Shown: positions 43,593-59,950, counted from the first letter of the stretch. The stretch is 64,000 bases of DNA from a virus (IMGVR_UViG_3300027747_002198:32001-96000), one strand, 5' to 3'. The notes: a model not told the origin generated them from the letters alone. Program-made: numbers and translations.

Positions 43593-44140
43593 GTGTATTG
43601 AATGAATATACAAAAGAAAAACATCGTGAAGTAGAATCACATCCATTTGTGCAACATCTATTGACTGGAGAAATTACTCCAGAACATTATGCTTTATTTC
43701 TACAACAGATGTCTATTGTATATTCAAATATTGAATATTTTGCTGAAATATCGCTTTTGTTACAAGATTTGCCTGGTATTAAAAGATCAGATAATATTTC
43801 TGCTGATATAATGGAATTAAATTATAGCGTTGAAAATTCAAAATTTGGATTGCCGGCCACAGAAAAATATAGACAACACATTGTTGATTTATATTATGGT
43901 AATAAAAAGTCATTAATACTTGCTCATGTGTATGTGCGTCACATGGGAGATTTATATGGCGGTAAAGTAATTGCCAAACGAGTTCCTGGTTCAGGTAAAA
44001 TGTACCAGTTTGAAGATAGACCAGGTTTAATCAAAGCATTAAATGCAAAATTATCTATCGATATTGTTGATGAGGCGTTATTAGGATTTGATTTGTCGGC
44101 AGCAATATTTGATGAAATATGGGAGAAAATAAATGAGTGA
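43589..44140 (+). CDS. Heme oxygenase
   Basis: TKEKHREVE proximal His, AHVYVRHMGDLYGG signature. Confidence 0.85.
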   Translation: MSVLNEYTKEKHREVESHPFVQHLLTGEITPEHYALFLQQMSIVYSNIEYFAEISLLLQDLPGIKRSDNISADIMELNYSVENSKFGLPATEKYRQHIVDLYYGNKKSLILAHVYVRHMGDLYGGKVIAKRVPGSGKMYQFEDRPGLIKALNAKLSIDIVDEALLGFDLSAAIFDEIWEKINE

Positions 44141-44747
44141 TGTGTTTAAATTTAATACGGAAGATTCTTTAAAAATAGAAACGGCACCGGCACCAAAAGT
44201 CACGGTTCCTATTTTTAATTTGGTATCAGAAAATGATCCAATCTTAAAAGAAGTGATGCCTGAATTTGATTTTGAGAATCCACCAACCGATCCAAATCAA
44301 TTAGCATCTTCATTGGTTGAAACTTGCATTAAACACAATGGTTATGGTTTATCGGCAAATCAATGTGGTTTAAAATATAGAGTATTTGTAATGGGCGCCG
44401 TCAATGATTATGTGGCATTTTTTAATCCAAAGGTTGTGGCAATGTATGATGAAACGCATATGGTGGAAGGTTGTCTTTCTTTCCCAATGTTGGCATTAGG
44501 TATTACTAGACCGGCAGCTATTGATGTTGAATACCAAGATTATACTGGTGCCTTTAAATCGGCACATTATAGTGGCATAAGTGCAAGGTGTTTCTTGCAT
44601 GAATTGGATCATATGAATGGAATAGTGTATACTAGTCGTGCTAAGCCAATGGCATTACAATCCGGCATGAAGAAACGTGGCAAAATTAATAAATTAATTC
44701 AAAAATCACACAAAAGTATTAATAAACTTGAGGCAATATTAAAATAA
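44133..44747 (+). CDS. def: Peptide deformylase
   Basis: GYGLSANQ, EGCLS, HELDH motifs. Confidence 0.92.
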   Translation: MSDVFKFNTEDSLKIETAPAPKVTVPIFNLVSENDPILKEVMPEFDFENPPTDPNQLASSLVETCIKHNGYGLSANQCGLKYRVFVMGAVNDYVAFFNPKVVAMYDETHMVEGCLSFPMLALGITRPAAIDVEYQDYTGAFKSAHYSGISARCFLHELDHMNGIVYTSRAKPMALQSGMKKRGKINKLIQKSHKSINKLEAILK

Positions 44748-49878: not shown

Positions 49879-50261
49879 TGCCTGATCTATTCAAAGAGAT
49901 CCTGCCGTCAATCCTTGAAACCAAAAAATCTGTATTCCGTGATGAACTAGATTACAAGGATTACAAGCCTTTTATCGTCAACCGAGCCTTGTCCTATCAC
50001 ATGGATTGTGTTCTTTATGTTAATGAATTGAATAAGAACCCATCCATTGATTCGGACATGCAATATTCGTATCTTCTAAATAGTATTAGACCTATGAAAC
50101 GGAAATTTCAACCGTGGCAGAAATCAGAGGTCGATAAGAACCTAGATTGCGTCAAAGAGTTTTTTGGCTATTCAAACGAGAAAGCCAAAGAAGCACTTCG
50201 TATTCTAAATGATGAACAAATCGCTGAAATAAAAAGAAGAACAGATAAAGGCGGAAGATGA
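49875..50261 (+). CDS. gp62: Clamp loader small subunit gp62
   Basis: PFIVNRALS, KRKF..W.K, FGYSNEKA..AL.IL. Confidence 0.9.
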   Translation: MMPDLFKEILPSILETKKSVFRDELDYKDYKPFIVNRALSYHMDCVLYVNELNKNPSIDSDMQYSYLLNSIRPMKRKFQPWQKSEVDKNLDCVKEFFGYSNEKAKEALRILNDEQIAEIKRRTDKGGR

Positions 50262-50665
50262 TTAATATTACAGATTTGGTTGAGGTGACACTAGAACAAC
50301 AGGATGATTTCCTCAAGGTTCGGGAAACTCTTACCCGTATCGGTGTTGCATCCAAAAAAGATAAAACTTTATTTCAATCTTGCCACATTTTACATAAGCA
50401 AGGTCGTTATTATATCGTACACTTTAAAGAGTTATTTGCTTTAGATGGTAAACCTACAGACCTTACCGAAAACGACCTTTCTCGTAGAAATGCCATTGCT
50501 AATCTTTTGCAAGATTGGGGTTTGGTAAAATTGGTTAATCCCCACTCCACCAAAATACCAGAACCTATTTTCTTATCTCAAGTTAAGATACTATCCCACA
50601 AAGAAAAACACGATTGGCAATTAGTACCAAAATATAACATTGGTAATAAAGCAAGAAAAGATTGA
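50258..50665 (+). CDS. regA: Translational repressor RegA
   Basis: DDFLKVRETLTRIGVAS, QSCHILHKQG.YYIVHFKELF. Confidence 0.96.
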   Translation: MINITDLVEVTLEQQDDFLKVRETLTRIGVASKKDKTLFQSCHILHKQGRYYIVHFKELFALDGKPTDLTENDLSRRNAIANLLQDWGLVKLVNPHSTKIPEPIFLSQVKILSHKEKHDWQLVPKYNIGNKARKD

Positions 50666-52435: not shown

Positions 52436-53002
52436 ATGTTTATAAAATTAAAAAACAAATTTATCGTTGATGGAAATAAATTCAATACAGGTAATGAAAT
52501 AGTTAATTATGGTTATAATGTTGATGGCCAATTTAAAGGAATTTCATATTTTAAAGTTGAGGGAAATATCTTTCAGGAAGTTTTAAAAGTTGTTCCGGAA
52601 AGGTATAGAAAAAATTTTGCAATTTCATATATGAAAATTAACGATTTGGTTCCTGCACACACAGATAATAATATATTAACTTCTATTAATTTTTATATTA
52701 AGCCTGGAAATTGTTTGACTCAATTTTATGAACTTAAATATAAAAATATAATTAAAAAAAAACATCCAAGTACAATTAAAAATTATATTGCCGGTGATGG
52801 ATTAACTTTTGATGAAAAAGATTTAAATCCAACGAAAAGTTTTATTGCTGAAGAAAATGACGTGTGGTTATTGGATGTTACAAAACCACATGCAGTTAAA
52901 CCTTTAGGAGAAAATACGGAAAGAATTGCAATTACAGTAGCTTCATTAATTTATGATTATAATTTGGTATGTAAAATGTTAAAAGAAACCGGTAATTTAT
53001 AA
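52436..53002 (+). CDS. Hypothetical protein, possible 2OG-Fe(II)/cupin fold
   Basis: PAHTD...PHAV....R motif; very AT-rich. Confidence 0.5.
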   Translation: MFIKLKNKFIVDGNKFNTGNEIVNYGYNVDGQFKGISYFKVEGNIFQEVLKVVPERYRKNFAISYMKINDLVPAHTDNNILTSINFYIKPGNCLTQFYELKYKNIIKKKHPSTIKNYIAGDGLTFDEKDLNPTKSFIAEENDVWLLDVTKPHAVKPLGENTERIAITVASLIYDYNLVCKMLKETGNL

Positions 53003-53628
53003 TGGAAAGTTTTAGAACTTTTACCATGTACGGAACATCAGAATCAAACACTTCAATTCAAGTTATGGTCGATGGTGTTATTTGTAAAAATGGAGTAGTT
53101 GAGGGTAATAACTTATTTTCTTTTCAGAATAATGTTAAAACCCACGGCAAAGTAGAAGTCAAAATACAGGTAAATAGTGGTAGTATAACACTTGGAAAAA
53201 CCATGGTAACATATCCTACATTATATGCAAAAAATGCATTTGCAAAATATAACAAAGGAACGATAACTTTTCCACAACCTTTTCAATCAAAATATGTATT
53301 TAATTCTGGTATATTAACTAAATTTGATCCGAATACAATTACCATAAAAGACCATTTTCAATTTGACCATGTAACATTTAATGGTCCTAATAATTTTTTA
53401 TTGTTATCAGAGAATGATTTGGAACCAAATTTAAATTTAGATAATTTTTATTTTTATAATAGTGATGATAGTAAAAATTTAAAAATTTTACCAATCTATA
53501 ATTATAAAAATGTTTATGTAAGTTGGTCATCAAAACAAGATAATTTAAAGTGTTTAGATATATTATTAACTGAAATATATGGAACATTTGGGCCGGTAGC
53601 TCAGTTGGTTAGAGCAGAGGACTCATAA
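53002..53628 (+). CDS. Hypothetical protein overlapping the 5' half of a tRNA
   Basis: 208 aa, AT-rich; stop codon in the tRNA anticodon loop. Confidence 0.45.
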   Translation: MESFRTFTMYGTSESNTSIQVMVDGVICKNGVVEGNNLFSFQNNVKTHGKVEVKIQVNSGSITLGKTMVTYPTLYAKNAFAKYNKGTITFPQPFQSKYVFNSGILTKFDPNTITIKDHFQFDHVTFNGPNNFLLLSENDLEPNLNLDNFYFYNSDDSKNLKILPIYNYKNVYVSWSSKQDNLKCLDILLTEIYGTFGPVAQLVRAEDS

Positions 53629-53666
53629 TCCTTTGGTCGAAGGTTCAAATCCTTCTCGGCCCACCA
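53590..53666 (+). tRNA. tRNA with CAT anticodon, Ile2 (lysidine)-like; Met-elongator not excluded
   Basis: Cloverleaf GGGCCGG/TCGGCCC-A-CCA, loop CTCATAA, T loop TTCAAAT. Confidence 0.85.
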
Positions 53667-53690
53667 TAAATAATACAAAAAAGGAAAAAG

Positions 53691-54053
53691 ATGGAACATT
53701 GGGGAAAACACCTAATTATCGATGCCAAAGGCTGCGATATACAAAGAGCAAATGATCCAGAATATATCAAACATTTTACCAAAGAATTGGTAAGATTGAT
53801 TGAGATGGTTCCTTTTGGTGAACCACAAGTTGTCCATTTTGCGGATGGTGGCGACAAATCTGGATGGACTATGATACAGTTGATTGAAACATCAAACGTC
53901 ATAGGGCACTTCCTAGACCATAATGGAGACCTTTACCTTGATGTATTCAGTTGTAAAGATTTTTCGGAGCATACGGTTATAGGCGCTTTAAAGATGTTCT
54001 TTTCACCAGGTGAAATTAAACATCAAGTCATTTGGAGAGATGCTCGTAACTAA
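53691..54053 (+). CDS. speD: S-adenosylmethionine decarboxylase proenzyme-like
   Basis: GKHLIIDAKGC, LIETSNV.GH, LYLDVFSCKDF; CATAAATA at 53665. Confidence 0.75.
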   Translation: MEHWGKHLIIDAKGCDIQRANDPEYIKHFTKELVRLIEMVPFGEPQVVHFADGGDKSGWTMIQLIETSNVIGHFLDHNGDLYLDVFSCKDFSEHTVIGALKMFFSPGEIKHQVIWRDARN

Positions 54054-54122
54054 ATAAGTATGTGTGAGTAGTAACGGATTAATGCAATTATTGGGTCAAC
54101 TTATTAGAAGGAGAGACCTAAA

Positions 54123-54635
54123 ATGCAGTTAAGTATAGTCGGTTGTCCCGATAAAAAACATTTCCGGCCGTATGTTAAAAGAGCGGCGCTATTTTACGCA
54201 CAAGAACTTATAAAACCTAAGATGTTGGAAAACATCTTTTTAAGAATTAAATTCAATAGTAAAATGAATGTATACGGATATGCTGAGATTTTAGAGTATA
54301 ATGAAAGCCGTAAAGCAAGAGAATTTCAAATAGAATTAAATCCAAACATTGGTGCGGCAGAAATATTAAAGTGTTTGGCACATGAAATGACCCATATTAA
54401 ACAATACGCTTACAATGAAACCAACGAAACCTTAACTCGTTGGAAAGGTATAAGAGTTGATTCTGATGTGGTAGATTATTGGGTTCAACCATGGGAAATA
54501 GAAGCATTTGGTAGAGAAGTCGGTCTATTTGCCAAGTTTGCAATTAAAGAAAAACTTTGGGATGTATTTTATGGAGTACAAAATCCTGATGGAGCAATAG
54601 AAATTGAAGAATTAGGTTGGAAAGAGCCTATATAA
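54123..54635 (+). CDS. HEXXH zinc metallopeptidase-like protein
   Basis: LAHEMTHIKQ and Y..QPWEIEAF motifs; ACTAAATA at 54049. Confidence 0.7.
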   Translation: MQLSIVGCPDKKHFRPYVKRAALFYAQELIKPKMLENIFLRIKFNSKMNVYGYAEILEYNESRKAREFQIELNPNIGAAEILKCLAHEMTHIKQYAYNETNETLTRWKGIRVDSDVVDYWVQPWEIEAFGREVGLFAKFAIKEKLWDVFYGVQNPDGAIEIEELGWKEPI

Positions 54636-54642
54636 AAGAACA

Positions 54643-54717
54643 ATGAAAAATTTACACATAACAACTTCCAATTATTATAATACATCAGGAACATGGTGTA
54701 GTGGGGTTCGTTTGTAA
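54643..54717 (+). CDS. Putative attenuator leader peptide MKNLHITTSNYYNTSGTWCSGVRL (24 aa)
   Basis: ATG 7 nt after the upstream stop; its 3' end forms the 5' strand of an antiterminator. Confidence 0.6.
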   Translation: MKNLHITTSNYYNTSGTWCSGVRL

Positions 54718-54772
54718 ATTTTTAAGTAACACAGATTTATACGAACCCAAGTCTAAACAACTTGGGTTTTTT
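54704..54772 (+). promoter_or_regulatory. Transcription attenuator: antiterminator (54704-54721/54734-54748) versus terminator (54744-54772)
   Basis: GGGTTCGT/ACGAACCC competes with AACCCAAGT-CTAAACA-ACTTGGGTT-TTTT. Confidence 0.7.
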
Positions 54773-54781
54773 GTTTTCCGT

Positions 54782-54855
54782 GGCCTGCTGGTGTAATGGT
54801 AGCACAAGGCACTCCAAACGCCTTGGTCGGGGTTCGATTCCCTGGTGGGACGCCA
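54782..54855 (+). tRNA. trnW: tRNA-Trp (CCA), non-canonical pairs
   Basis: Loop CTCCAAA, G73 discriminator, encoded CCA, T loop TTCGATT. Confidence 0.85.
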
Positions 54856-54858
54856 ATG

Positions 54859-54934
54859 ATTGTAAAGTTAAAAAACTTTATTGTAAAGTTATTCGTAGTT
54901 GATTGTAAAGTTAAGGTGTTGTGTGGAAACAACA
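54859..54934 (+). repeat. Three phased ATTGTAAAGTTA repeats plus TGTTG-N8-CAACA palindrome
   Basis: Copies at 54859, 54880, 54902; palindrome 54917-54934. Confidence 0.8.
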
Positions 54935-54949
54935 GTATCAAAATGTTAC

Positions 54950-54978
54950 TTGACAGAAAATAGTTTGTCTAGTATAAT
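54950..54978 (+). promoter_or_regulatory. Consensus sigma70 promoter for tRNA-Tyr onward
   Basis: TTGACA-17-TATAAT. Confidence 0.85.
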
Positions 54979-54990
54979 AGTAGTTCAATT

Positions 54991-55074
54991 GGGGTAGAAG
55001 AATCAACGGTGATTCAGCGGCCTGTAAAGCCGCCGCCTCTGGCATGCTTGGTTCGATCCCAAGATACCCCACCA
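54991..55074 (+). tRNA. trnY: tRNA-Tyr (GTA)
   Basis: GCGGC-CTGTAAA-GCCGC arm, long variable arm, A-CCA end. Confidence 0.88.
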
Positions 55075-55161
55075 GATTGTTGTATCAAGTGTAATGATTG
55101 GGTTGAGGACTTCTCGGCCGACAACAACGGAGGTGGCCGTCCCGTTTACATAACGAGCCCC
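55075..55161 (+). ncRNA. Candidate structured RNA (multi-stem, possible pseudoknots)
   Basis: GC-rich non-coding segment with several complementary blocks. Confidence 0.45.
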
Positions 55162-55181
55162 ATATTTTTAAGGAGAGTATT

Positions 55182-55400
55182 ATGAAAAAGAAAAATACTC
55201 CCCAACCTCGGAACTATCTTGTCAAATTGGCATTGTTTCGAAAAGCAGGGAGCCATCGTAAGAGTAACAAAGCAGTAAGGCGTAGTGAGAAGTCAAAAAG
55301 AAGTTATTATAGTGAAGTATACTGCCACTTAATACATATATGTGGAGTCCGGCCGGCGCACCTTCCACGGGTCAGCAATAGGTTCGAAACTATTGTGTAG
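55182..55400 (+). CDS. Small basic protein with arfA-like gene architecture
   Basis: AAGGAG SD; K/R-rich aa 1-40; 3' half inside a 24-bp RNA stem. Confidence 0.55.
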   Translation: MKKKNTPQPRNYLVKLALFRKAGSHRKSNKAVRRSEKSKRSYYSEVYCHLIHICGVRPAHLPRVSNRFETIV

Positions 55401-55420
55401 TGTGCTTCACTATAATAATT
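55302..55420 (+). other. 24-bp RNA stem (4 G-U pairs), putative RNase III substrate, with two internal hairpins
   Basis: 55302-55325 pairs with 55397-55420. Confidence 0.7.
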
Positions 55421-55433
55421 TTGGTCCGCCAAT

Positions 55434-55508
55434 GCCCTTTTAGCACAGCGGTAGTGCAGTGGTTTTGTAAACCAAAGGTCGGGAGTTCAAATCTCTCAGA
55501 GGGCACCA
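55434..55508 (+). tRNA. trnT: tRNA-Thr (TGT)
   Basis: GCCCTTT/AGAGGGC-A-CCA, loop TTTGTAA. Confidence 0.9.
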
Positions 55509-55527
55509 AGTATACCGCACAATGTTC

Positions 55528-55556
55528 TTGACAATGTGTATAAGTAATGTTATAGT
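55528..55556 (+). promoter_or_regulatory. Sigma70-type promoter
   Basis: TTGACA-17-TATAGT with TGn. Confidence 0.75.
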
Positions 55557-55565
55557 ATTGAATAT

Positions 55566-55632
55566 GCGGTGTGTAATAGTACGATGTGAGATACCCTCTT
55601 ATATTATCTGAGCAAAGCAGACCACCGCTCCA
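55566..55632 (+). ncRNA. 67-nt tRNA-like RNA with Gly identity elements (loop triplet ACC), lacking canonical D and T loops
   Basis: GCGGTG/CACCGC-T-CCA acceptor and three hairpin arms. Confidence 0.6.
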
Positions 55633-55652
55633 AATTTTATTAGGGATTTATA

Positions 55653-55814
55653 ATGGCAACTAAAGATAAAACAAAAAAATCTTCAATGACAACCAAAACA
55701 GGTAAGCCTCGTTTAGGTCCTTTAAATGTTGAACAGTTAACTAAATTATTAGATGGTGCTCGTAAGAAACACAAACCAAAAATTTTGAAAGCAATTGCTC
55801 GAAAAGCAGCATGA
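55653..55814 (+). CDS. Unlisted 53-aa basic protein (MATKDKTKK...IARKAA)
   Basis: AGGGA SD, open frame. Confidence 0.55.
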   Translation: MATKDKTKKSSMTTKTGKPRLGPLNVEQLTKLLDGARKKHKPKILKAIARKAA

Positions 55815-55912
55815 GTTCAAATACAAATCCTTCTTGGGGCAAAACACTAACCAAGAAAGAATTGTTGGATATGCTTGACAGAATTTATGCCAAGCAAAAA
55901 AAAGAAAAGTAA
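55811..55912 (+). CDS. Unlisted 33-aa ORF MSSNTNPSWGKTLTKKELLDMLDRIYAKQKKEK
   Basis: ATGA overlap. Confidence 0.4.
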   Translation: MSSNTNPSWGKTLTKKELLDMLDRIYAKQKKEK

Positions 55913-55916
55913 CCTT

Positions 55917-55990
55917 GCGGGATTAGTTTAATGGTAAAACTACAGATTTCCAATCTGTTGTCATCGGTTCGATTCCGTTATCCCGCTCCA
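55917..55990 (+). tRNA. trnG: tRNA-Gly (TCC)
   Basis: GCGGGAT/ATCCCGC-T-CCA, loop TTTCCAA. Confidence 0.92.
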
Positions 55991-55991
55991 T

Positions 55992-56067
55992 TCCTCGATA
56001 GCTCAGTCGGTAGAGCAGCAGACTGTTAATCTGTTGGTCCGTGGTTCAAGTCCACGTTGGGGAGCCA
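55992..56067 (+). tRNA. trnN: tRNA-Asn (GTT)
   Basis: TCCTCGA/TTGGGGA-G-CCA, loop CTGTTAA. Confidence 0.92.
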
Positions 56068-56269
56068 TTGTTGAGAATGTGTGAAAAAGAGTAAGCAATC
56101 CTAACTGTTAAGGAATATCATCACCCTTGAGGTGTCCATCCGAGATCCGGAGATGACTGCTGGCTGAAGCAGTATGAAAGGTGTAATCAAGGGGAGGTCA
56201 GAGCATAGGACGGGTTAAAGACCGCACCGGCGAGAGCCTTTTAAACATAAAACAGTATTCTCAACAATG
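56066..56269 (+). ncRNA. Candidate ~200-nt structured ncRNA
   Basis: 14-bp closing stem CATTGTTGAGAATG/TATTCTCAACAATG and several internal helices. Confidence 0.55.
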
Positions 56270-56299
56270 ACTATATACTTTATTACATAAGGAATTGAT

Positions 56300-56554
56300 A
56301 TGATAATCGTAGATGAAATGACACCAACAAAAGATAACATCATTGTGGATCGTATTGCTGGTGAAAAAGAAACAGAATCAGGAATTATTTTAAAATCATC
56401 CGATGGACCAGACCGTGCAAAAGTGATTGCTATTGGTCCTAAAGTTGATGAAGTTGAAGTTGGTGATGAAGTATTACTTAACTGGAATGGTGCAGTGAAA
56501 ATTGCTAATGAACGTTATGTAATCAAAATTGAACACGTTGTTTTAATTTATTAA
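56300..56554 (+). CDS. groES: GroES/Cpn10-like co-chaperonin
   Basis: P..D.IIV, ETESGIIL mobile loop, AKVIAIGP, VEVGDEVL. Confidence 0.85.
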   Translation: MIIVDEMTPTKDNIIVDRIAGEKETESGIILKSSDGPDRAKVIAIGPKVDEVEVGDEVLLNWNGAVKIANERYVIKIEHVVLIY

Positions 56555-56559
56555 TCTTG

Positions 56560-56634
56560 CGCGGAGTAGTTCAGAGGTAGAACGCTGGACTCATAATCCA
56601 GAGGCCGTTGGTTCGATTCCATCCTCCGCAACCA
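56560..56634 (+). tRNA. Initiator-type tRNA-fMet (CAT)
   Basis: C1-A72 mismatch, CGCGGAG/CTCCGCA-A-CCA, loop CTCATAA. Confidence 0.85.
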
Positions 56635-56647
56635 ACAAGGAGATAAT

Positions 56648-56791
56648 ATGAGTGTGGTTAAATCAAATACTAAAAAAGTTCCTAATGTTCCTAATATTAA
56701 AAATATAGGACCAAAACCAAACATCAAACCTAAAGGTCCTGTTGCGGCCAAATCTTCAGCACCAATGCGTAAAAGTGGGAGAGGACGATGA
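56648..56791 (+). CDS. Unlisted 47-aa K/P-rich basic peptide ending RKSGRGR
   Basis: AAGGAG SD immediately after tRNA-fMet. Confidence 0.55.
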   Translation: MSVVKSNTKKVPNVPNIKNIGPKPNIKPKGPVAAKSSAPMRKSGRGR

Positions 56792-56934
56792 TACAATCAA
56801 AAGGTGTTGATGAGTCAGATCCAGTAAAGAAACAAGATTCTGAAAATGAAGATGCCGAATTCAAACGAATTGAAGATGAGCAATATCGCCAAAAACAATT
56901 AGAAAAAGTTAGAAACTTGACACGTTGGCCATAA
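56788..56934 (+). CDS. Unlisted 48-aa ORF (MIQSKGVDE...LTRWP)
   Basis: ATGA overlap, GGAGAGG SD. Confidence 0.5.
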   Translation: MIQSKGVDESDPVKKQDSENEDAEFKRIEDEQYRQKQLEKVRNLTRWP

Positions 56935-57007
56935 TGGCATAAGGCGTATAATACGCCATCAGCATTAGATACACATTATAATCTACCATGTAATCTATGG
57001 GTGTCAT
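56909..57007 (-). CDS. Unlisted 32-aa antisense ORF MTPIDYMVDYNVYLMLMAYYTPYAIMANVSSF
   Basis: Minus-strand GAAAGG SD and ATAAATA late-promoter motif (57041-57035). Confidence 0.4.
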   Translation of the reverse strand: MTPIDYMVDYNVYLMLMAYYTPYAIMANVSSF

Positions 57008-57099
57008 AATTGAACCTTTCTTTTGGTATATAAGTATTTATCTCTTTACAACCTTTTCTGGTTGTTATATAATAATGAAATATTTTGAAAGGAAATAAC

Positions 57100-57414
57100 A
57101 TGGCAGATATTAAATTATTTAAACTATTCACCAATGAAGAAATCTTGGCTGAAATTGAATCTGAATCTGAAACCGAATATGTATTATCTAATACTGTAGG
57201 CGTTTCAGTTGTTCGTCAAAAAGATGGAACACCAGGTGTTGGTTTTATTCCATTCCCTCTACACGCAGAACAAAAAACAAATTCCACATTTGTATTGAAT
57301 AAGAAAAGTGTATCTTATTCTTATGTTCCTGCTCAAGATTTTATTGATAATTATAATTCTATTTTTGGATCAGGCATCGTCCTTCCACCAGCAAAAACTT
57401 TAATCAAAGGTTAA
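57100..57414 (+). CDS. Conserved T4-like protein upstream of gp43 (Sm-like fold suspected; start likely ATG 57100)
   Basis: IKLFKLFTNEEILAEI, YNSIFGSGIVLP; AAGGA SD. Confidence 0.6.
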   Translation: MADIKLFKLFTNEEILAEIESESETEYVLSNTVGVSVVRQKDGTPGVGFIPFPLHAEQKTNSTFVLNKKSVSYSYVPAQDFIDNYNSIFGSGIVLPPAKTLIKG

Positions 57415-57415
57415 A

Positions 57416-59950
57416 TTGAGTAACTTCTACACTAATGTACAATGCTTTGGTAGTAATATTCTCTATCGAGGCATTAAAGATGGTAAAAGAATAAAAGCAA
57501 GGATCGAGTATTCTCCATCTTTGTTTTTGCCGTCTAAAAGAATCACCAACTTCACCTCACTCGAAGGTGATTATCTCGACCAAAAAATCTTTGGTACCAT
57601 CCGTGAAGCGAGAGATTACATCAAGCAATTTGAAGGTGTTTCTGGTGGTGTGAAGATTTATGGTCAAACCCGTTTTGAGTATGCGTATATTGCAGACCAA
57701 CACACAGGTATGGTTGATTACGACCAAGATAAAGTTCTTATTGCTGTAGTCGATATTGAGGTCGGTTCTGAAAATGGATTCCCTGATCCATACAAAGCAA
57801 ACGAACCAATCACAGCTATTTGTATCAAATATGTCAATGGTCCAACTTATGTGTTTGCTTGTGGTGATTATGTTAAACAAGGTGATGAGAATTATGTGAA
57901 ATGTAAAGACGAATATTCTATTTGCAAACAATTTATGGCTTTGTGGACAAATAAATGTCCTGATATTCTAACTGGTTGGAATACTAAGTTTTTTGATGAG
58001 CCTTATTTGATTAATCGTTTCCGTAAAATTCTTGGTGAAGATGAAACCAAGAAACTTTCTCCATGGAATTATATTGGCGAGCGTAAAACAACAATCAATG
58101 GACGCCAGTTAATTGCCTATAACCTGATGGGTGTTGAATCACTCGATTATATTGAATTGTATAAGTGGTATGCTCCTGGCGGAAAGTCACAAGAATCCTA
58201 TCGTTTAGATGCCATTGCTCAAGTCGAATTGGGTGAAGGCAAAATCTCTTATGATGAATATGATAACTTGCACTCATTGTATCGATTAAACTTCCAAAAA
58301 TTTATTGAGTATAATATCAAAGACGTTGAACTCATTATTAAACTTGAAGAAAAGTTAAAGTTACTCGAATTGGGAATAACTTTGGCCTATGATACCAAAA
58401 CAAACTTTGAAGATATCTTTGCTCAAACTCGTATGTGGGATTCTCTAACATATTCTTATCTGTTTGAAAAGAATATTATTGTTCCTCCTAGAATTACCAA
58501 AGAAAAAGATGGTATGTTTGAAGGTGCTTATGTTAAAGTACCACAAGTTGGTTTACATAATTGGGTTGCATCGTTTGACCTGAATAGTTTGTATCCGCAT
58601 TTGATGATGCAATACAATATTTCTCCTGAAACTTTGATTGAGCCTGAAAATTATTCAGATGAAATGCGTGAGATTTTATCTCAAGGTGTTTCTGTTGATA
58701 AGATGCTGTACAAAAATGTGGATACTTCCAAACTTAAAGGTGCAACTCTAACCCCTAATGGACAATTCTTCCGTACCGATATTCAAGGTTTCTTGCCCAA
58801 AATGATGGAAGAAATGTATACTGATAGAAAGAAGTTTAAGAAGTTAATGTTGCAGGCAAAACAGGAATATGAAAATGAAACTGATGAATCTAAAAAATAT
58901 GAAATTGAAAAGCGAATTGCTAAGTACAACAATATTCAGTTGGCCAAAAAAGTGTCCCTTAATAGTGCTTATGGTGCTTTGGGCTCTCAGTACTTCCGTT
59001 TTTATGATTTGCGTATGGCACTTGGTGTTACTACTGCTGGCCAACTTTCCATCAGGTGGATTGAAAATAAACTTAACGATTGGATGAACAATCTATTAAA
59101 AAGTGAGAAAGATTATGTTATTGCGTCCGATACTGATTCGATTTACCTCAACCTTGGTCCATTGGTTAATAGCATTGTTAAATCAAAGATTGAAACTCCT
59201 AAAGTTATCTCCATCATGGACCGTATTTGTGAGGATAAGATTCAACCTTATATTGACAAGAGTTATCAGGAGTTGGCAGAGTATGTGTGTGCATATTCTC
59301 AAAAGATGGAAATGAAACGTGAGGGTTTGTCCGATAAAGGAATCTGGACCGCCAAGAAGCGATATATTCTAAATGTTTATAACAATGAAGGTGTTCAATA
59401 TAACGAACCACAACTCAAGGTGATGGGTTTGGAGATGATTAAATCGTCTACACCATCGGTTGTTCGTGATAAGATGAAATCGCTTATTAAGATTCTTGTA
59501 TCTGGCACAGAAGATGATGTACAATCATTTATTGCAGAGTTTAGAGAACAATTTAAACATCTACCTGTAGAGGAGATATCTTTTCCTCGTGGTCTGAATG
59601 GGCTAAATACCTATTCACATGCGGTGACCTTATACACTAAAGGTACACCAATCCATGTAAAAGGTGCAATTCTATATAATCATAAATTGAAACAAATGGA
59701 ACTCACCAAAAAGTACCCACTCATTCAAGAAGGCGAGAAAGTTAAGTTTACTTATCTAAAAATGCCAAACACATTTAAAGATAGTGTTGTTTCATTTCCT
59801 AGTAGATTACCTGTCGAATTTGATTTACAAAAGTTTATTGATTATGATACACAATTCGAAAAAACATTCTTGGAACCGATCAAAGTAATTCTTGATTGTA
59901 TGGGATGGAAAACAGAAAAATGTAGTTCAATAGAGGACTTTTTCTCATGA
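57416..59950 (+). CDS. gp43: Family B DNA polymerase gp43
   Basis: DIEV exonuclease, SFDLNSLYP, KVSLNSAYG, SDTDS, C-terminal clamp-binding IEDFF. Confidence 0.97.
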   Translation: MSNFYTNVQCFGSNILYRGIKDGKRIKARIEYSPSLFLPSKRITNFTSLEGDYLDQKIFGTIREARDYIKQFEGVSGGVKIYGQTRFEYAYIADQHTGMVDYDQDKVLIAVVDIEVGSENGFPDPYKANEPITAICIKYVNGPTYVFACGDYVKQGDENYVKCKDEYSICKQFMALWTNKCPDILTGWNTKFFDEPYLINRFRKILGEDETKKLSPWNYIGERKTTINGRQLIAYNLMGVESLDYIELYKWYAPGGKSQESYRLDAIAQVELGEGKISYDEYDNLHSLYRLNFQKFIEYNIKDVELIIKLEEKLKLLELGITLAYDTKTNFEDIFAQTRMWDSLTYSYLFEKNIIVPPRITKEKDGMFEGAYVKVPQVGLHNWVASFDLNSLYPHLMMQYNISPETLIEPENYSDEMREILSQGVSVDKMLYKNVDTSKLKGATLTPNGQFFRTDIQGFLPKMMEEMYTDRKKFKKLMLQAKQEYENETDESKKYEIEKRIAKYNNIQLAKKVSLNSAYGALGSQYFRFYDLRMALGVTTAGQLSIRWIENKLNDWMNNLLKSEKDYVIASDTDSIYLNLGPLVNSIVKSKIETPKVISIMDRICEDKIQPYIDKSYQELAEYVCAYSQKMEMKREGLSDKGIWTAKKRYILNVYNNEGVQYNEPQLKVMGLEMIKSSTPSVVRDKMKSLIKILVSGTEDDVQSFIAEFREQFKHLPVEEISFPRGLNGLNTYSHAVTLYTKGTPIHVKGAILYNHKLKQMELTKKYPLIQEGEKVKFTYLKMPNTFKDSVVSFPSRLPVEFDLQKFIDYDTQFEKTFLEPIKVILDCMGWKTEKCSSIEDFFS

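What the first reader, a model, noticed from the sequence alone, without database searches (positions are those of the whole stretch)
53590..57041. System view: a translation-surveillance island between regA and gp43
Within ~3.5 kb are 7 tRNAs, a leader-peptide attenuator, an arfA-like gene, a tRNA-Gly-like RNA, two unexplained structured RNAs, GroES and several tiny basic ORFs; peptide deformylase is elsewhere in the window. Inference: a coordinated module that senses stalled or damaged translation and supplies replacement tRNAs, rescue and decoys, possibly countering tRNA-targeting abortive-infection systems.
Basis: inference. Interest (0 to 1): 0.75.

Follow-up and report, generated by a model that had tools for sequence, protein, structure and literature searches.

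The report
Mosaic tRNA island with odd gadgets
The stretch is a fast-shuffling tRNA island of an uncultured T4-like phage, not one fixed "system", but it holds a well-supported glycine-tRNA mimic, a second conserved RNA, a likely attenuator in front of the tRNA genes and a widespread unnamed 40-residue basic protein that are each worth testing.

Summary
Nearly everything listed is there. I confirmed 7 tRNAs (all the genome has), GroES, four small ORFs under purifying selection, regA, gp43 and a peptide deformylase 9 kb upstream. One of the two "structured RNAs" is real; the other could not be placed.

The system reading is only partly supported. In 17 complete regA-gp43 islands of relatives, only an HExxH zincin-like protein and the ORF before gp43 are constant. 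Those islands hold 1-14 tRNAs (0-24 across all loci). GroES is in 5/17, the "arfA-like" ORF in 8/17 and AdoMetDC in 5/17. Two complete relatives keep GroES but lack the arfA-like ORF. This is a hyperplastic region of promoter/stem-loop cassettes, a known kind.

Four parts stand out:
- **tRNA mimic:** a 67-nt cloverleaf with the glycine identity set, encoded CCA and its own promoter; 10 of 20 pairs covary.
- **Second RNA:** about 200 nt, with covariation.
- **Leader ORF:** 22-25 codons, overlapping an antiterminator/terminator before the tRNA array, enriched in codons read by the island's tRNAs.
- **Basic protein:** a 40-residue domain in 406 unnamed clusters, not detectably homologous to ArfA, followed at codon ~40 by a long stem or by tRNA-Lys(UUU).

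The scan noted similar islands on other DNA.

The parts
53590..53666 (+). tRNA with anticodon CAU (called Met). Acceptor positions C4 and C5 suggest it may be an Ile2-type tRNA (inference). The upstream 208-aa ORF (53002-53628) reads 39 nt into it.
53691..54053 (+). S-adenosylmethionine decarboxylase. Present in 5 of 17 islands.
54123..54635 (+). HExxH zincin-like protein of unknown substrate. Present in 17 of 17 islands.
54643..54717 (+). 24-codon leader ORF. Its last codons (54703-54711) are complementary to the 5' arm of the terminator (54741-54748).
54743..54775 (+). Intrinsic terminator (10-bp stem plus U run) placed directly before the tRNA array. The stem covaries among relatives.
54782..54855 (+). 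tRNA-Trp (CCA)
54950..54978 (+). Perfect sigma-70-type promoter (12 of 12 consensus positions) before tRNA-Tyr
54991..55074 (+). tRNA-Tyr (GUA)
55182..55400 (+). 72-aa ORF ('arfA-like'). Only codons 1-40 are conserved, and they are under purifying selection.
55300..55422 (+). 24-26-bp stem that starts at codon 40 of the ORF, holds its stop codon and ends 11 nt before tRNA-Thr
55434..55508 (+). tRNA-Thr (UGU)
55528..55556 (+). Sigma-70-type promoter (11 of 12 positions, with an extended -10 TG), conserved before the tRNA-like RNA in relatives
55566..55632 (+). 67-nt tRNA-Gly-like cloverleaf RNA with encoded CCA
55653..55912 (+). Two overlapping small ORFs of 53 and 33 aa, basic and coding
55917..56067 (+). 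tRNA-Gly (UCC) and tRNA-Asn (GUU)
56068..56270 (+). ~200-nt structured RNA of unknown class with a 12-bp closing stem. It always abuts the 3' end of a tRNA or of the tRNA mimic.
56300..56554 (+). GroES/Cpn10 co-chaperonin. In the island in 5 of 17 relatives.
56560..56634 (+). tRNA with anticodon CAU and a C1-A72 mismatch, which makes it initiator-like (inference). One of the most widely kept tRNAs in relatives (with tRNA-Gly).
56648..56934 (+). Two overlapping small ORFs: 47 aa (very basic) and 48 aa (acidic). Both are coding.

Best explanation
The stretch is the tRNA-bearing part of a hyperplastic region inserted between regA and gene 43 of an uncultured T4-like myovirus.

It is a mosaic of small, independently shuffling cassettes: tRNA genes, stable RNAs, mini-ORFs and auxiliary genes. 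Sigma-70-type early promoters drive these cassettes, and stem-loops and tRNA structures punctuate them. This is the arrangement described as promoter/stem-loop (PeSL) cassettes in other T4-like phages. It is not one co-inherited system.

Shown here:
- the mosaic content of the region;
- that the tRNA mimic and the ~200-nt RNA are real structured RNAs;
- that the mini-ORFs are coding.

Inferred:
1. Transcripts are cut at tRNA ends, which frees the mini-mRNAs and RNAs.
2. The leader ORF and terminator form an attenuator. A ribosome that reaches the leader's end covers the antiterminator arm, so transcription stops before tRNA-Trp. A ribosome stalled earlier, on Thr, Ser, Asn or Tyr codons, leaves that arm free, so transcription reads into the tRNA genes.
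3. The 40-residue basic protein is made from an mRNA whose end is set by RNA processing at about codon 40, and it acts on the ribosome or on RNA.
4. The mimic is recognised by glycyl-tRNA synthetase or by a factor that binds tRNA-Gly.
For: - **Mosaic content:** blastn and tblastn of every element against 80 relatives' loci show 0-24 tRNAs and shuffled order. The 17 complete regA-gp43 islands span 4.2-8.7 kb and hold 1-14 tRNAs, and only two genes are constant. Few element pairs are associated.
- **Whole-genome check:** two complete relatives have GroES but no member of the orf72 family.
- **Promoter and stem-loop design:** there are consensus promoters at 54950, 55528 and 57045. Stems lie next to or around promoters at the end of orf72 in relatives. 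PeSL cassettes are described in PMC2839356 and PMC4122927.
- **tRNA mimic:** 98.9% of cells are paired, 10 of 20 pairs have changes on both sides, and 0 of 500 shuffles reach the observed values.
- **~200-nt RNA:** 10 of 25 predicted pairs are compensatory.
- **Leader ORF:** across 15 distinct leaders the reading frame has 0 stop codons, against 20 and 19 in the other two frames. Of 206 leader core codons in 11 leaders before arrays of at most 14 tRNA species, 94 are cognate to the island's tRNAs, against 51.8 expected.
- **orf72:** third-position differences number 127, against 32 and 30 at positions 1 and 2. The profile finds 406 clusters. A structure or tRNA-Lys starts at nt 115-138 of the ORF in all 36 distinct contexts.
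Against: - Several cassettes share a translation theme and always sit in the same genomic slot. Some functional linkage, short of obligate co-inheritance, is therefore not excluded.
- Presence or absence was scored inside the island for mostly incomplete contigs, so an element may sit elsewhere in those genomes.
- Only 17 related islands were complete, and they are not independent samples.
- The antiterminator pairing is invariant, so it has no covariation support. Part of the leader set was fetched with a pattern that required both arms.
- No expression data could be obtained.
Confidence: 0.7

Rival explanations
1. The elements form one coordinated module that senses stalled or damaged translation. 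It answers with replacement tRNAs, a rescue factor and decoy RNAs, so as to defeat host nucleases that cut tRNAs.
For: - All elements lie on one strand in one slot of the genome.
- The leader ORF is enriched in codons that the island's tRNAs read.
- Across divergent phage lineages the basic protein sits directly before tRNA-Lys(UUU), the target of PrrC-type nucleases: 14 of 24 tails that are recognisably tRNA-derived.
- The tRNA mimic carries the glycine identity set.
- Phage tRNAs as a counter to tRNA-targeting defences is a published hypothesis (PMC10264068).
Against: - The elements assort independently.
- The region has at least three promoters and an internal terminator, so it is not one operon.
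- There are no tRNA repair or rescue enzymes.
- This genome has no tRNA-Lys at all.
- GroES, AdoMetDC, the zincin-like protein and the deformylase are not surveillance parts.
Confidence: 0.12
2. The 40-residue basic protein is a phage analogue of ArfA, BrfA or ArfT. It is made from an mRNA that loses its stop codon through processing, either RNase P at tRNA-Lys or RNase III in the long stem. It accumulates when trans-translation is saturated and recruits a release factor to stalled ribosomes. Such ribosomes would be frequent because cutting at tRNAs leaves stop-less mini-mRNAs.
For: - The conserved domain ends at codon ~40, where a 15-26-bp stem or a tRNA-Lys gene starts. The stop codon lies inside or after that structure.
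- The tails after the domain are hypervariable, and 54 of 203 are translated tRNA genes.
- The domain is very basic, with 17 invariant residues within the clade, and is under purifying selection.
- ORFs that stay open up to a tRNA 5' end are common in these islands: 26 of 296 tRNA contexts, including the window's own 208-aa ORF. Stop-less mRNAs are therefore likely.
Against: - No homology to ArfA was found. PF03889 hits none of 134 members. hhalign gives probabilities of 0.5% and 0.1%. A profile search of PDB sequences finds nothing.
- 28 of 118 distant members have an ordinary stop just after the domain. Acidovorax phage ACP17 has a copy with a normal stop and no tRNA nearby.
- Reading into a tRNA is not special to this ORF.
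- In this clade the stems sit beside or around promoters, like PeSL terminator/promoter cassettes.
Confidence: 0.2
3. The island is an ordinary codon-supplement tRNA cluster. The small ORFs, the hairpins and the 'RNAs' are incidental spacer sequence without function.
For: tRNA clusters with small ORFs and stable RNAs of unknown role are long known in T4 (own knowledge). Island content is highly variable.
Against: - Both RNAs keep their pairs through compensatory changes.
- The mini-ORFs show purifying selection.
- The tRNA mimic has its own conserved promoter and reaches up to 99% identity across relatives whose gp43 is only about 80% identical.
- The orf72 domain is found in 406 clusters across unrelated phage contigs.
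Confidence: 0.05

Closest known systems
Hyperplastic regions with promoter-early/stem-loop (PeSL) cassettes in T4-like phages (Arbiol 2010, PMC2839356; Comeau 2014, PMC4122927)
   Same: A variable block lies between conserved core genes. Small ORFs are flanked by composite stem-loop and sigma-70-type promoter motifs. Insertions, deletions and reshuffling occur between close relatives.
   Different: Here the cassettes are mostly tRNA genes and structured RNAs. Stems begin inside a conserved ORF, at a fixed codon. No recombination junctions were mapped here.
The phage T4 tRNA gene cluster with its stable RNAs C and D (own knowledge)
   Same: Clustered early-transcribed tRNA genes are interspersed with small ORFs and with stable RNAs of unknown function. 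These RNAs are released by tRNA-processing enzymes.
   Different: The location in the genome differs. The RNAs here have no match in Rfam 15. One is a cloverleaf with glycine identity elements. No sequence comparison with T4 RNA C or D was made.
ArfA (PF03889) and its analogues BrfA and ArfT
   Same: A small basic protein whose gene carries an RNA structure before or over the stop codon. The functional product could therefore come from a truncated, stop-less mRNA.
   Different: No sequence homology was found. In other lineages the structure is a tRNA-Lys gene rather than an RNase III hairpin or a terminator. Many members have ordinary stop codons. Rescue activity is untested.
Leader-peptide transcription attenuators (trp, his, pheST type)
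   Same: A short ORF lies just before an intrinsic terminator. The end of the ORF is complementary to the terminator's 5' arm. The ORF is enriched in the codons of the pathway that it would control.
   Different: It has three pairing segments rather than four. It would control a tRNA gene array rather than biosynthetic or synthetase genes. It would sense several amino acids at once. No experimental support exists.
Non-proteinogenic tRNA-Gly species and tRNA mimics (staphylococcal cell-wall tRNA-Gly; the tRNA-like domain of bacterial Y RNAs)
   Same: An RNA of tRNA shape that keeps synthetase identity elements or an acceptor end, but lacks the elements used in ribosomal decoding.
   Different: The acceptor stem has 6 bp, the anticodon-like stem 7 bp and the D-like arm 3 bp. 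There is no GG in the D loop and no T-loop consensus. The genome encodes no Ro protein. Charging with glycine is untested.

Membership tests
ArfA (PF03889) | Sequence match to the family profile | tested here: not met
   There is no Pfam hit at E<=1 for orf72 and none among 134 family members at E<=0.01. NCBIfam and PHROGs give nothing. hhalign against E. coli ArfA gives probabilities of 0.5% and 0.1%.
ArfA (PF03889) | Small basic protein with an RNA structure inside the ORF that can remove the stop codon | tested here: inconclusive
   A 15-26-bp stem or tRNA-Lys starts at codon 39-46 in 36 distinct contexts, and the stop lies inside the stem-loop in 19 of the 24 stem contexts. Cleavage itself was not observed. 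Some members have ordinary stops.
ArfA (PF03889) | Recruits RF2 to non-stop ribosomes | not testable with these tools
   This needs an in vitro release assay or genetic complementation.
Canonical tRNA (RF00005) | Match to the tRNA covariance model or to ARAGORN. This implies a 7-bp acceptor stem, GG in the D loop, the T-loop consensus and a 5-bp anticodon stem. | tested here: not met
   For 55566-55632 there is no Rfam tRNA hit at E<=5. ARAGORN finds nothing at that place, even at lowered thresholds. The alignment shows a 6-bp acceptor stem, a 3-bp D-like arm, a 7-bp anticodon-like stem and a non-consensus T-like loop.
tRNA-Gly identity set (bacterial GlyRS: G1:C72, C2:G71, G3:C70, U73, C35, C36; own knowledge) | These nucleotides are present at the equivalent positions | tested here: met
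   The first four acceptor pairs, the U before CCA and the CCC in the 7-nt loop are invariant in 33 sequences. Charging itself was not tested.
Leader-peptide attenuator | A conserved short ORF just upstream of an intrinsic terminator | tested here: met
   15 distinct leaders of 22-25 codons are open only in one frame. The terminator covaries and is followed by a tRNA within 8-131 nt in the 14 leaders whose locus reaches one.
Leader-peptide attenuator | Mutually exclusive antiterminator and terminator pairing that depends on ribosome position | tested here: inconclusive
   An 8-bp complementarity exists between 54703-54710 and 54741-54748. Both arms are invariant, so there is no covariation. 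Part of the set was selected for these arms.
Leader-peptide attenuator | The leader is enriched in codons of the controlled function | tested here: met
   94 of 206 core codons are cognate to the island's tRNAs, against 51.8 expected. The test that swaps tRNA sets among loci is only marginal (P = 0.07).
PeSL-type hyperplastic region | A variable block between core genes, with composite stem-loop and early-promoter motifs at cassette borders | tested here: met
   compared with the description in PMC4122927. Recombination at these motifs was not shown.
GroES / Cpn10 (PF00166) | Profile match above the curated cut-off | tested here: met
   37.9 bits against a cut-off of 21.1. PHROG 3188 matches at E 4e-13.

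The most novel reading that the evidence does not exclude
The island carries feedback devices coupled to translation, of kinds not described for phages:
- an attenuator whose leader peptide senses the very tRNAs that it switches on;
- a phage-wide 40-residue basic protein made from mRNA truncated by tRNA processing, which rescues or modulates stalled ribosomes (a functional analogue of ArfA without homology to it);
- a glycylatable tRNA mimic that serves as a decoy or cofactor.
Probability: 0.2. Interest if true: 0.85.

Novelty: new variant of a known kind. Interest (0 to 1): 0.55.

Why it matters
What phage tRNA clusters are for has been an open question for 50 years.

This island family gives three small parts that can be cloned and tested directly: the leader-terminator switch, the 40-residue protein and the tRNA-Gly mimic. 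If the switch works as proposed, it would be the first attenuator known to control tRNA genes. It would also show that phages measure tRNA supply. If the basic protein rescues ribosomes, it would define a new and widespread viral rescue factor.

The negative result also matters. The elements are separate cassettes, so each should be studied on its own rather than as one defence-evasion system.

Tried and rejected
- **Complex prediction.** A prediction of the 40-residue domain with E. coli RF2 gave no verdict (score 0.00, controls not run). It is not used as evidence either way.
- **Searches with the orf72 family.**
  - The genome-contig scan failed because the alignment had no stretch conserved enough.
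  - A profile search of PDB sequences found nothing.
  - The protein atlas gave only weak unnamed clusters and a 0.83 hit to DUF7230, which Pfam scans did not bear out.
  - tblastn against cultured phages with the window's own domain found nothing.
  - A more distant member found only Acidovorax phage ACP17 at E 1e-4, plus two weak hits.
- **ArfA family alignment.** The ArfA homologues fetched (the 120 listed of 730) were all close enterobacterial sequences, so no deeper profile-profile test was made.
- **Fold search for the HExxH protein.** It gave only weak zincin-like rows (leishmanolysin, selecase, Wss1/SPRTN, YbeY) and none at E<=1e-3. Its function stays open.
- **Readings of the ~200-nt RNA that were considered.**
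  - tmRNA: no hit.
  - Y RNA: no Ro protein in the genome. The weak YrlA hit lies on tRNA-Gly/Asn, not on this RNA.
  - Riboswitch or ribozyme: nothing in Rfam at E<=5.
- **Second structured RNA.** The stretch 55075-55181 was rejected because it folds no better than shuffles and is conserved in only 3 loci.
- **Abandoned script.** It was redone from stored files.

Full report
**Where the window lies.** The window is bases 32001-96000 of a complete 161.8-kb IMG/VR viral contig with terminal repeats. The gene order is gp45, dsbA, gp44, gp62, regA (50258-50665), then gp43 (57416-59950). This marks a T4-like myovirus. Its gp43 is only about 50% identical to that of cyanomyoviruses. About 570 IMG/VR contigs encode a relative of it, and the best 80 are 78-97% identical. 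In T4 (own knowledge), regA and gene 43 are adjacent. Here 6.7 kb lies between them.

**The observation.**
- ARAGORN finds seven tRNAs at 53590-56634. The Rfam tRNA model finds six of them in the window at gathering score and all seven at E<=5, and a whole-genome scan finds tRNAs nowhere else in the genome.
- Pfam identifies AdoMet decarboxylase at 53691-54053 and Cpn10/GroES at 56300-56554.
- An HExxH protein lies at 54123-54635. Its model is confident (pLDDT 86) and zincin-like, but it has no significant match among solved structures.
- Peptide deformylase is at 44133-44747.
- The four mini-ORFs (53, 33, 47 and 48 aa) and the first 40 codons of the 72-aa ORF show a clear excess of third-position changes, so they are coding.
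- Rfam 15 finds nothing but tRNAs.

**Test of the system claim.** I compared every element with the relatives' loci. I then scored presence within the 17 loci that hold both regA and gp43.
- These islands measure 4.2-8.7 kb and hold 1-14 tRNAs. Other loci have 0 to 24.
- Only the HExxH protein and the 104-aa ORF before gp43 are constant.
- Frequencies among the 17 islands:

| Element | Islands |
|---|---|
| tRNA mimic | 13 |
| 48-aa ORF | 11 |
| 72-aa ORF | 8 |
| ~200-nt RNA | 6 |
| GroES | 5 |
| AdoMetDC | 5 |
| Leader/terminator | 5 |

- Few pairs of elements are associated.
- Two complete relatives (168 and 164 kb) carry GroES and 14-24 tRNAs but no member of the 72-aa ORF family.
- The genome has no tmRNA, RF-1/ArfB domain, T4 RNA ligase 1, RtcB or Ro.
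- The region has at least three strong sigma-70-type promoters and one internal terminator, so it is not one operon.

This is the behaviour of a hyperplastic region. The stem-loop and promoter composites at cassette borders match the PeSL cassettes described for other T4-like phages (PMC2839356, PMC4122927).

**The tRNA-Gly-like RNA (55566-55632).** This is the most widely conserved non-coding piece. It was found in 30 loci of the first set, at up to 99% identity, although gp43 is only about 80% identical.
- Thirty-three distinct sequences fit a cloverleaf of four helices. 98.9% of cells are paired, 10 of 20 pairs change on both sides, and no shuffle or slid register comes near these values.
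- It has a 6-bp acceptor stem whose first three pairs are G:C, C:G and G:C. A U precedes an encoded CCA. A 7-nt loop holds an invariant CCC, read as anticodon A/U-C-C.
- This is the bacterial glycine identity set (own knowledge).
- It lacks the D-loop and T-loop consensus, and neither ARAGORN nor the Rfam tRNA model calls it.
- It has its own conserved promoter.
- It often sits 6-9 nt before tRNA-Gly(UCC).
- It is single-copy in this genome and absent from 51 unrelated phage loci.
- Its function is unknown. A decoy or cofactor that GlyRS can charge is an inference.

**The ~200-nt RNA (56068-56270).** Sixteen sequences share nearly invariant ends and a variable middle. The closing stem and three inner helices keep pairing through compensatory changes, in 10 of 25 pairs. 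It always starts right after a tRNA or the tRNA mimic. It is not tied to GroES. Its class is unknown.

**The leader ORF and terminator (54643-54775).**
- Fifteen distinct relatives keep a 22-25-codon ORF. That frame has no stop codons, against 20 and 19 in the other two frames.
- The ORF ends 25 nt before a terminator whose stem covaries, and a tRNA array follows in the 14 relatives whose locus reaches one.
- The last codons are complementary to the terminator's 5' arm. A ribosome at the end of the leader would therefore block an antiterminator.
- The leader core is rich in Ser, Thr, Asn, Tyr, Pro and Trp. In 11 leaders before arrays of at most 14 tRNA species, 94 of 206 codons are read by the island's own tRNAs, against 51.8 expected.
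- Leaders that contain Ala or Pro tend to precede arrays that contain tRNA-Ala or tRNA-Pro. Linkage could explain this, and the swap test is marginal (P = 0.07).
- Caveats: both antiterminator arms are invariant, and part of the set was fetched with a pattern that required them.

**The 72-aa ORF (55182-55400).**
- Only residues 1-40 are conserved, with 17 invariant positions in the clade. The tails are hypervariable.
- An exhaustive profile search finds 406 clusters of mostly 40-100 residues. None has a Pfam family or a name.
- The contigs examined look like phage DNA and are rich in tRNAs.
- It is not detectably homologous to ArfA.
- In 24 distinct relatives of this clade, a 15-26-bp stem starts at codon 39-42, holds the stop codon in 19 of the 24, and often ends exactly at the next tRNA.
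- In the other 12 distinct contexts, from other phage lineages and from two members of this clade, the gene is followed at nt 115-138 by a tRNA-Lys gene, anticodon UUU in 11 of the 12.
- At least 54 of 203 tails are translated tRNA genes.
- Three facts temper that reading:
  1. 28 of 118 distant members have an ordinary stop, as does a copy in Acidovorax phage ACP17 that has no tRNA nearby.
  2. ORFs open up to a tRNA 5' end are common in these islands (26 of 296 contexts), including the window's own 208-aa ORF and the 53-aa ORF family.
  3. In this clade the stems look like PeSL terminator/promoter elements.
- I put a rescue-factor function at about 0.2.

**Verdict.** The list of parts is largely right. 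The 'system' is a known kind of mosaic tRNA island. Four of its cassettes are new or unnamed and can be tested. First readers of this scan noted similar islands and the same ORF design on other DNA. These are leads, not support.

Noticed in passing
window 53002-53628: The 208-aa ORF has no stop codon before tRNA-Met. Its last 13 codons are a translation of the tRNA's 5' part, so RNase P cutting would leave this mRNA without a stop codon. Across relatives, 26 of 296 tRNA contexts have an ORF of at least 35 codons that stays open up to the tRNA 5' end. These include an HNH-like 177-179-aa ORF and the 53-aa ORF family.
   Followed up: partly
window 54857-54914: There are three 15-nt direct repeats (core of 12 nt, exact) spaced 21-22 nt apart, between tRNA-Trp and the perfect promoter of tRNA-Tyr. 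They are possible binding sites for a regulator. The core motif is exact only here in the window.
   Followed up: partly
window 56560-56634 and 53590-53666: The two CAU-anticodon tRNAs differ. The second has a C1-A72 mismatch typical of bacterial initiator tRNA, and with tRNA-Gly it is one of the most widely kept tRNAs of the island. The first has C4 and C5 in the acceptor stem, as tRNA-Ile2 does. Both readings are inferences.
   Followed up: no
window 54123-54635: The HExxH protein is the only island gene, besides the ORF before gp43, that is present in all 17 complete islands. It sits directly before the leader/terminator where that element is present (5 of the 17 islands). Its confident model is zincin-like, with weak likeness to selecase, Wss1/SPRTN and YbeY.
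   Followed up: partly
L230 2525-2632 (Acidovorax phage ACP17, KY979132.2 151787-151894): A cultured phage carries an unannotated member of the 40-residue basic protein family, lying between annotated genes. It could serve as an experimental handle.
   Followed up: partly
window 57045-57414: A sigma-70-type promoter (11 of 12 positions) and a 104-aa ORF (PHROG 527, unknown function) immediately precede gp43. The ORF was found by blastn in 78 of the 80 related loci.
   Followed up: no
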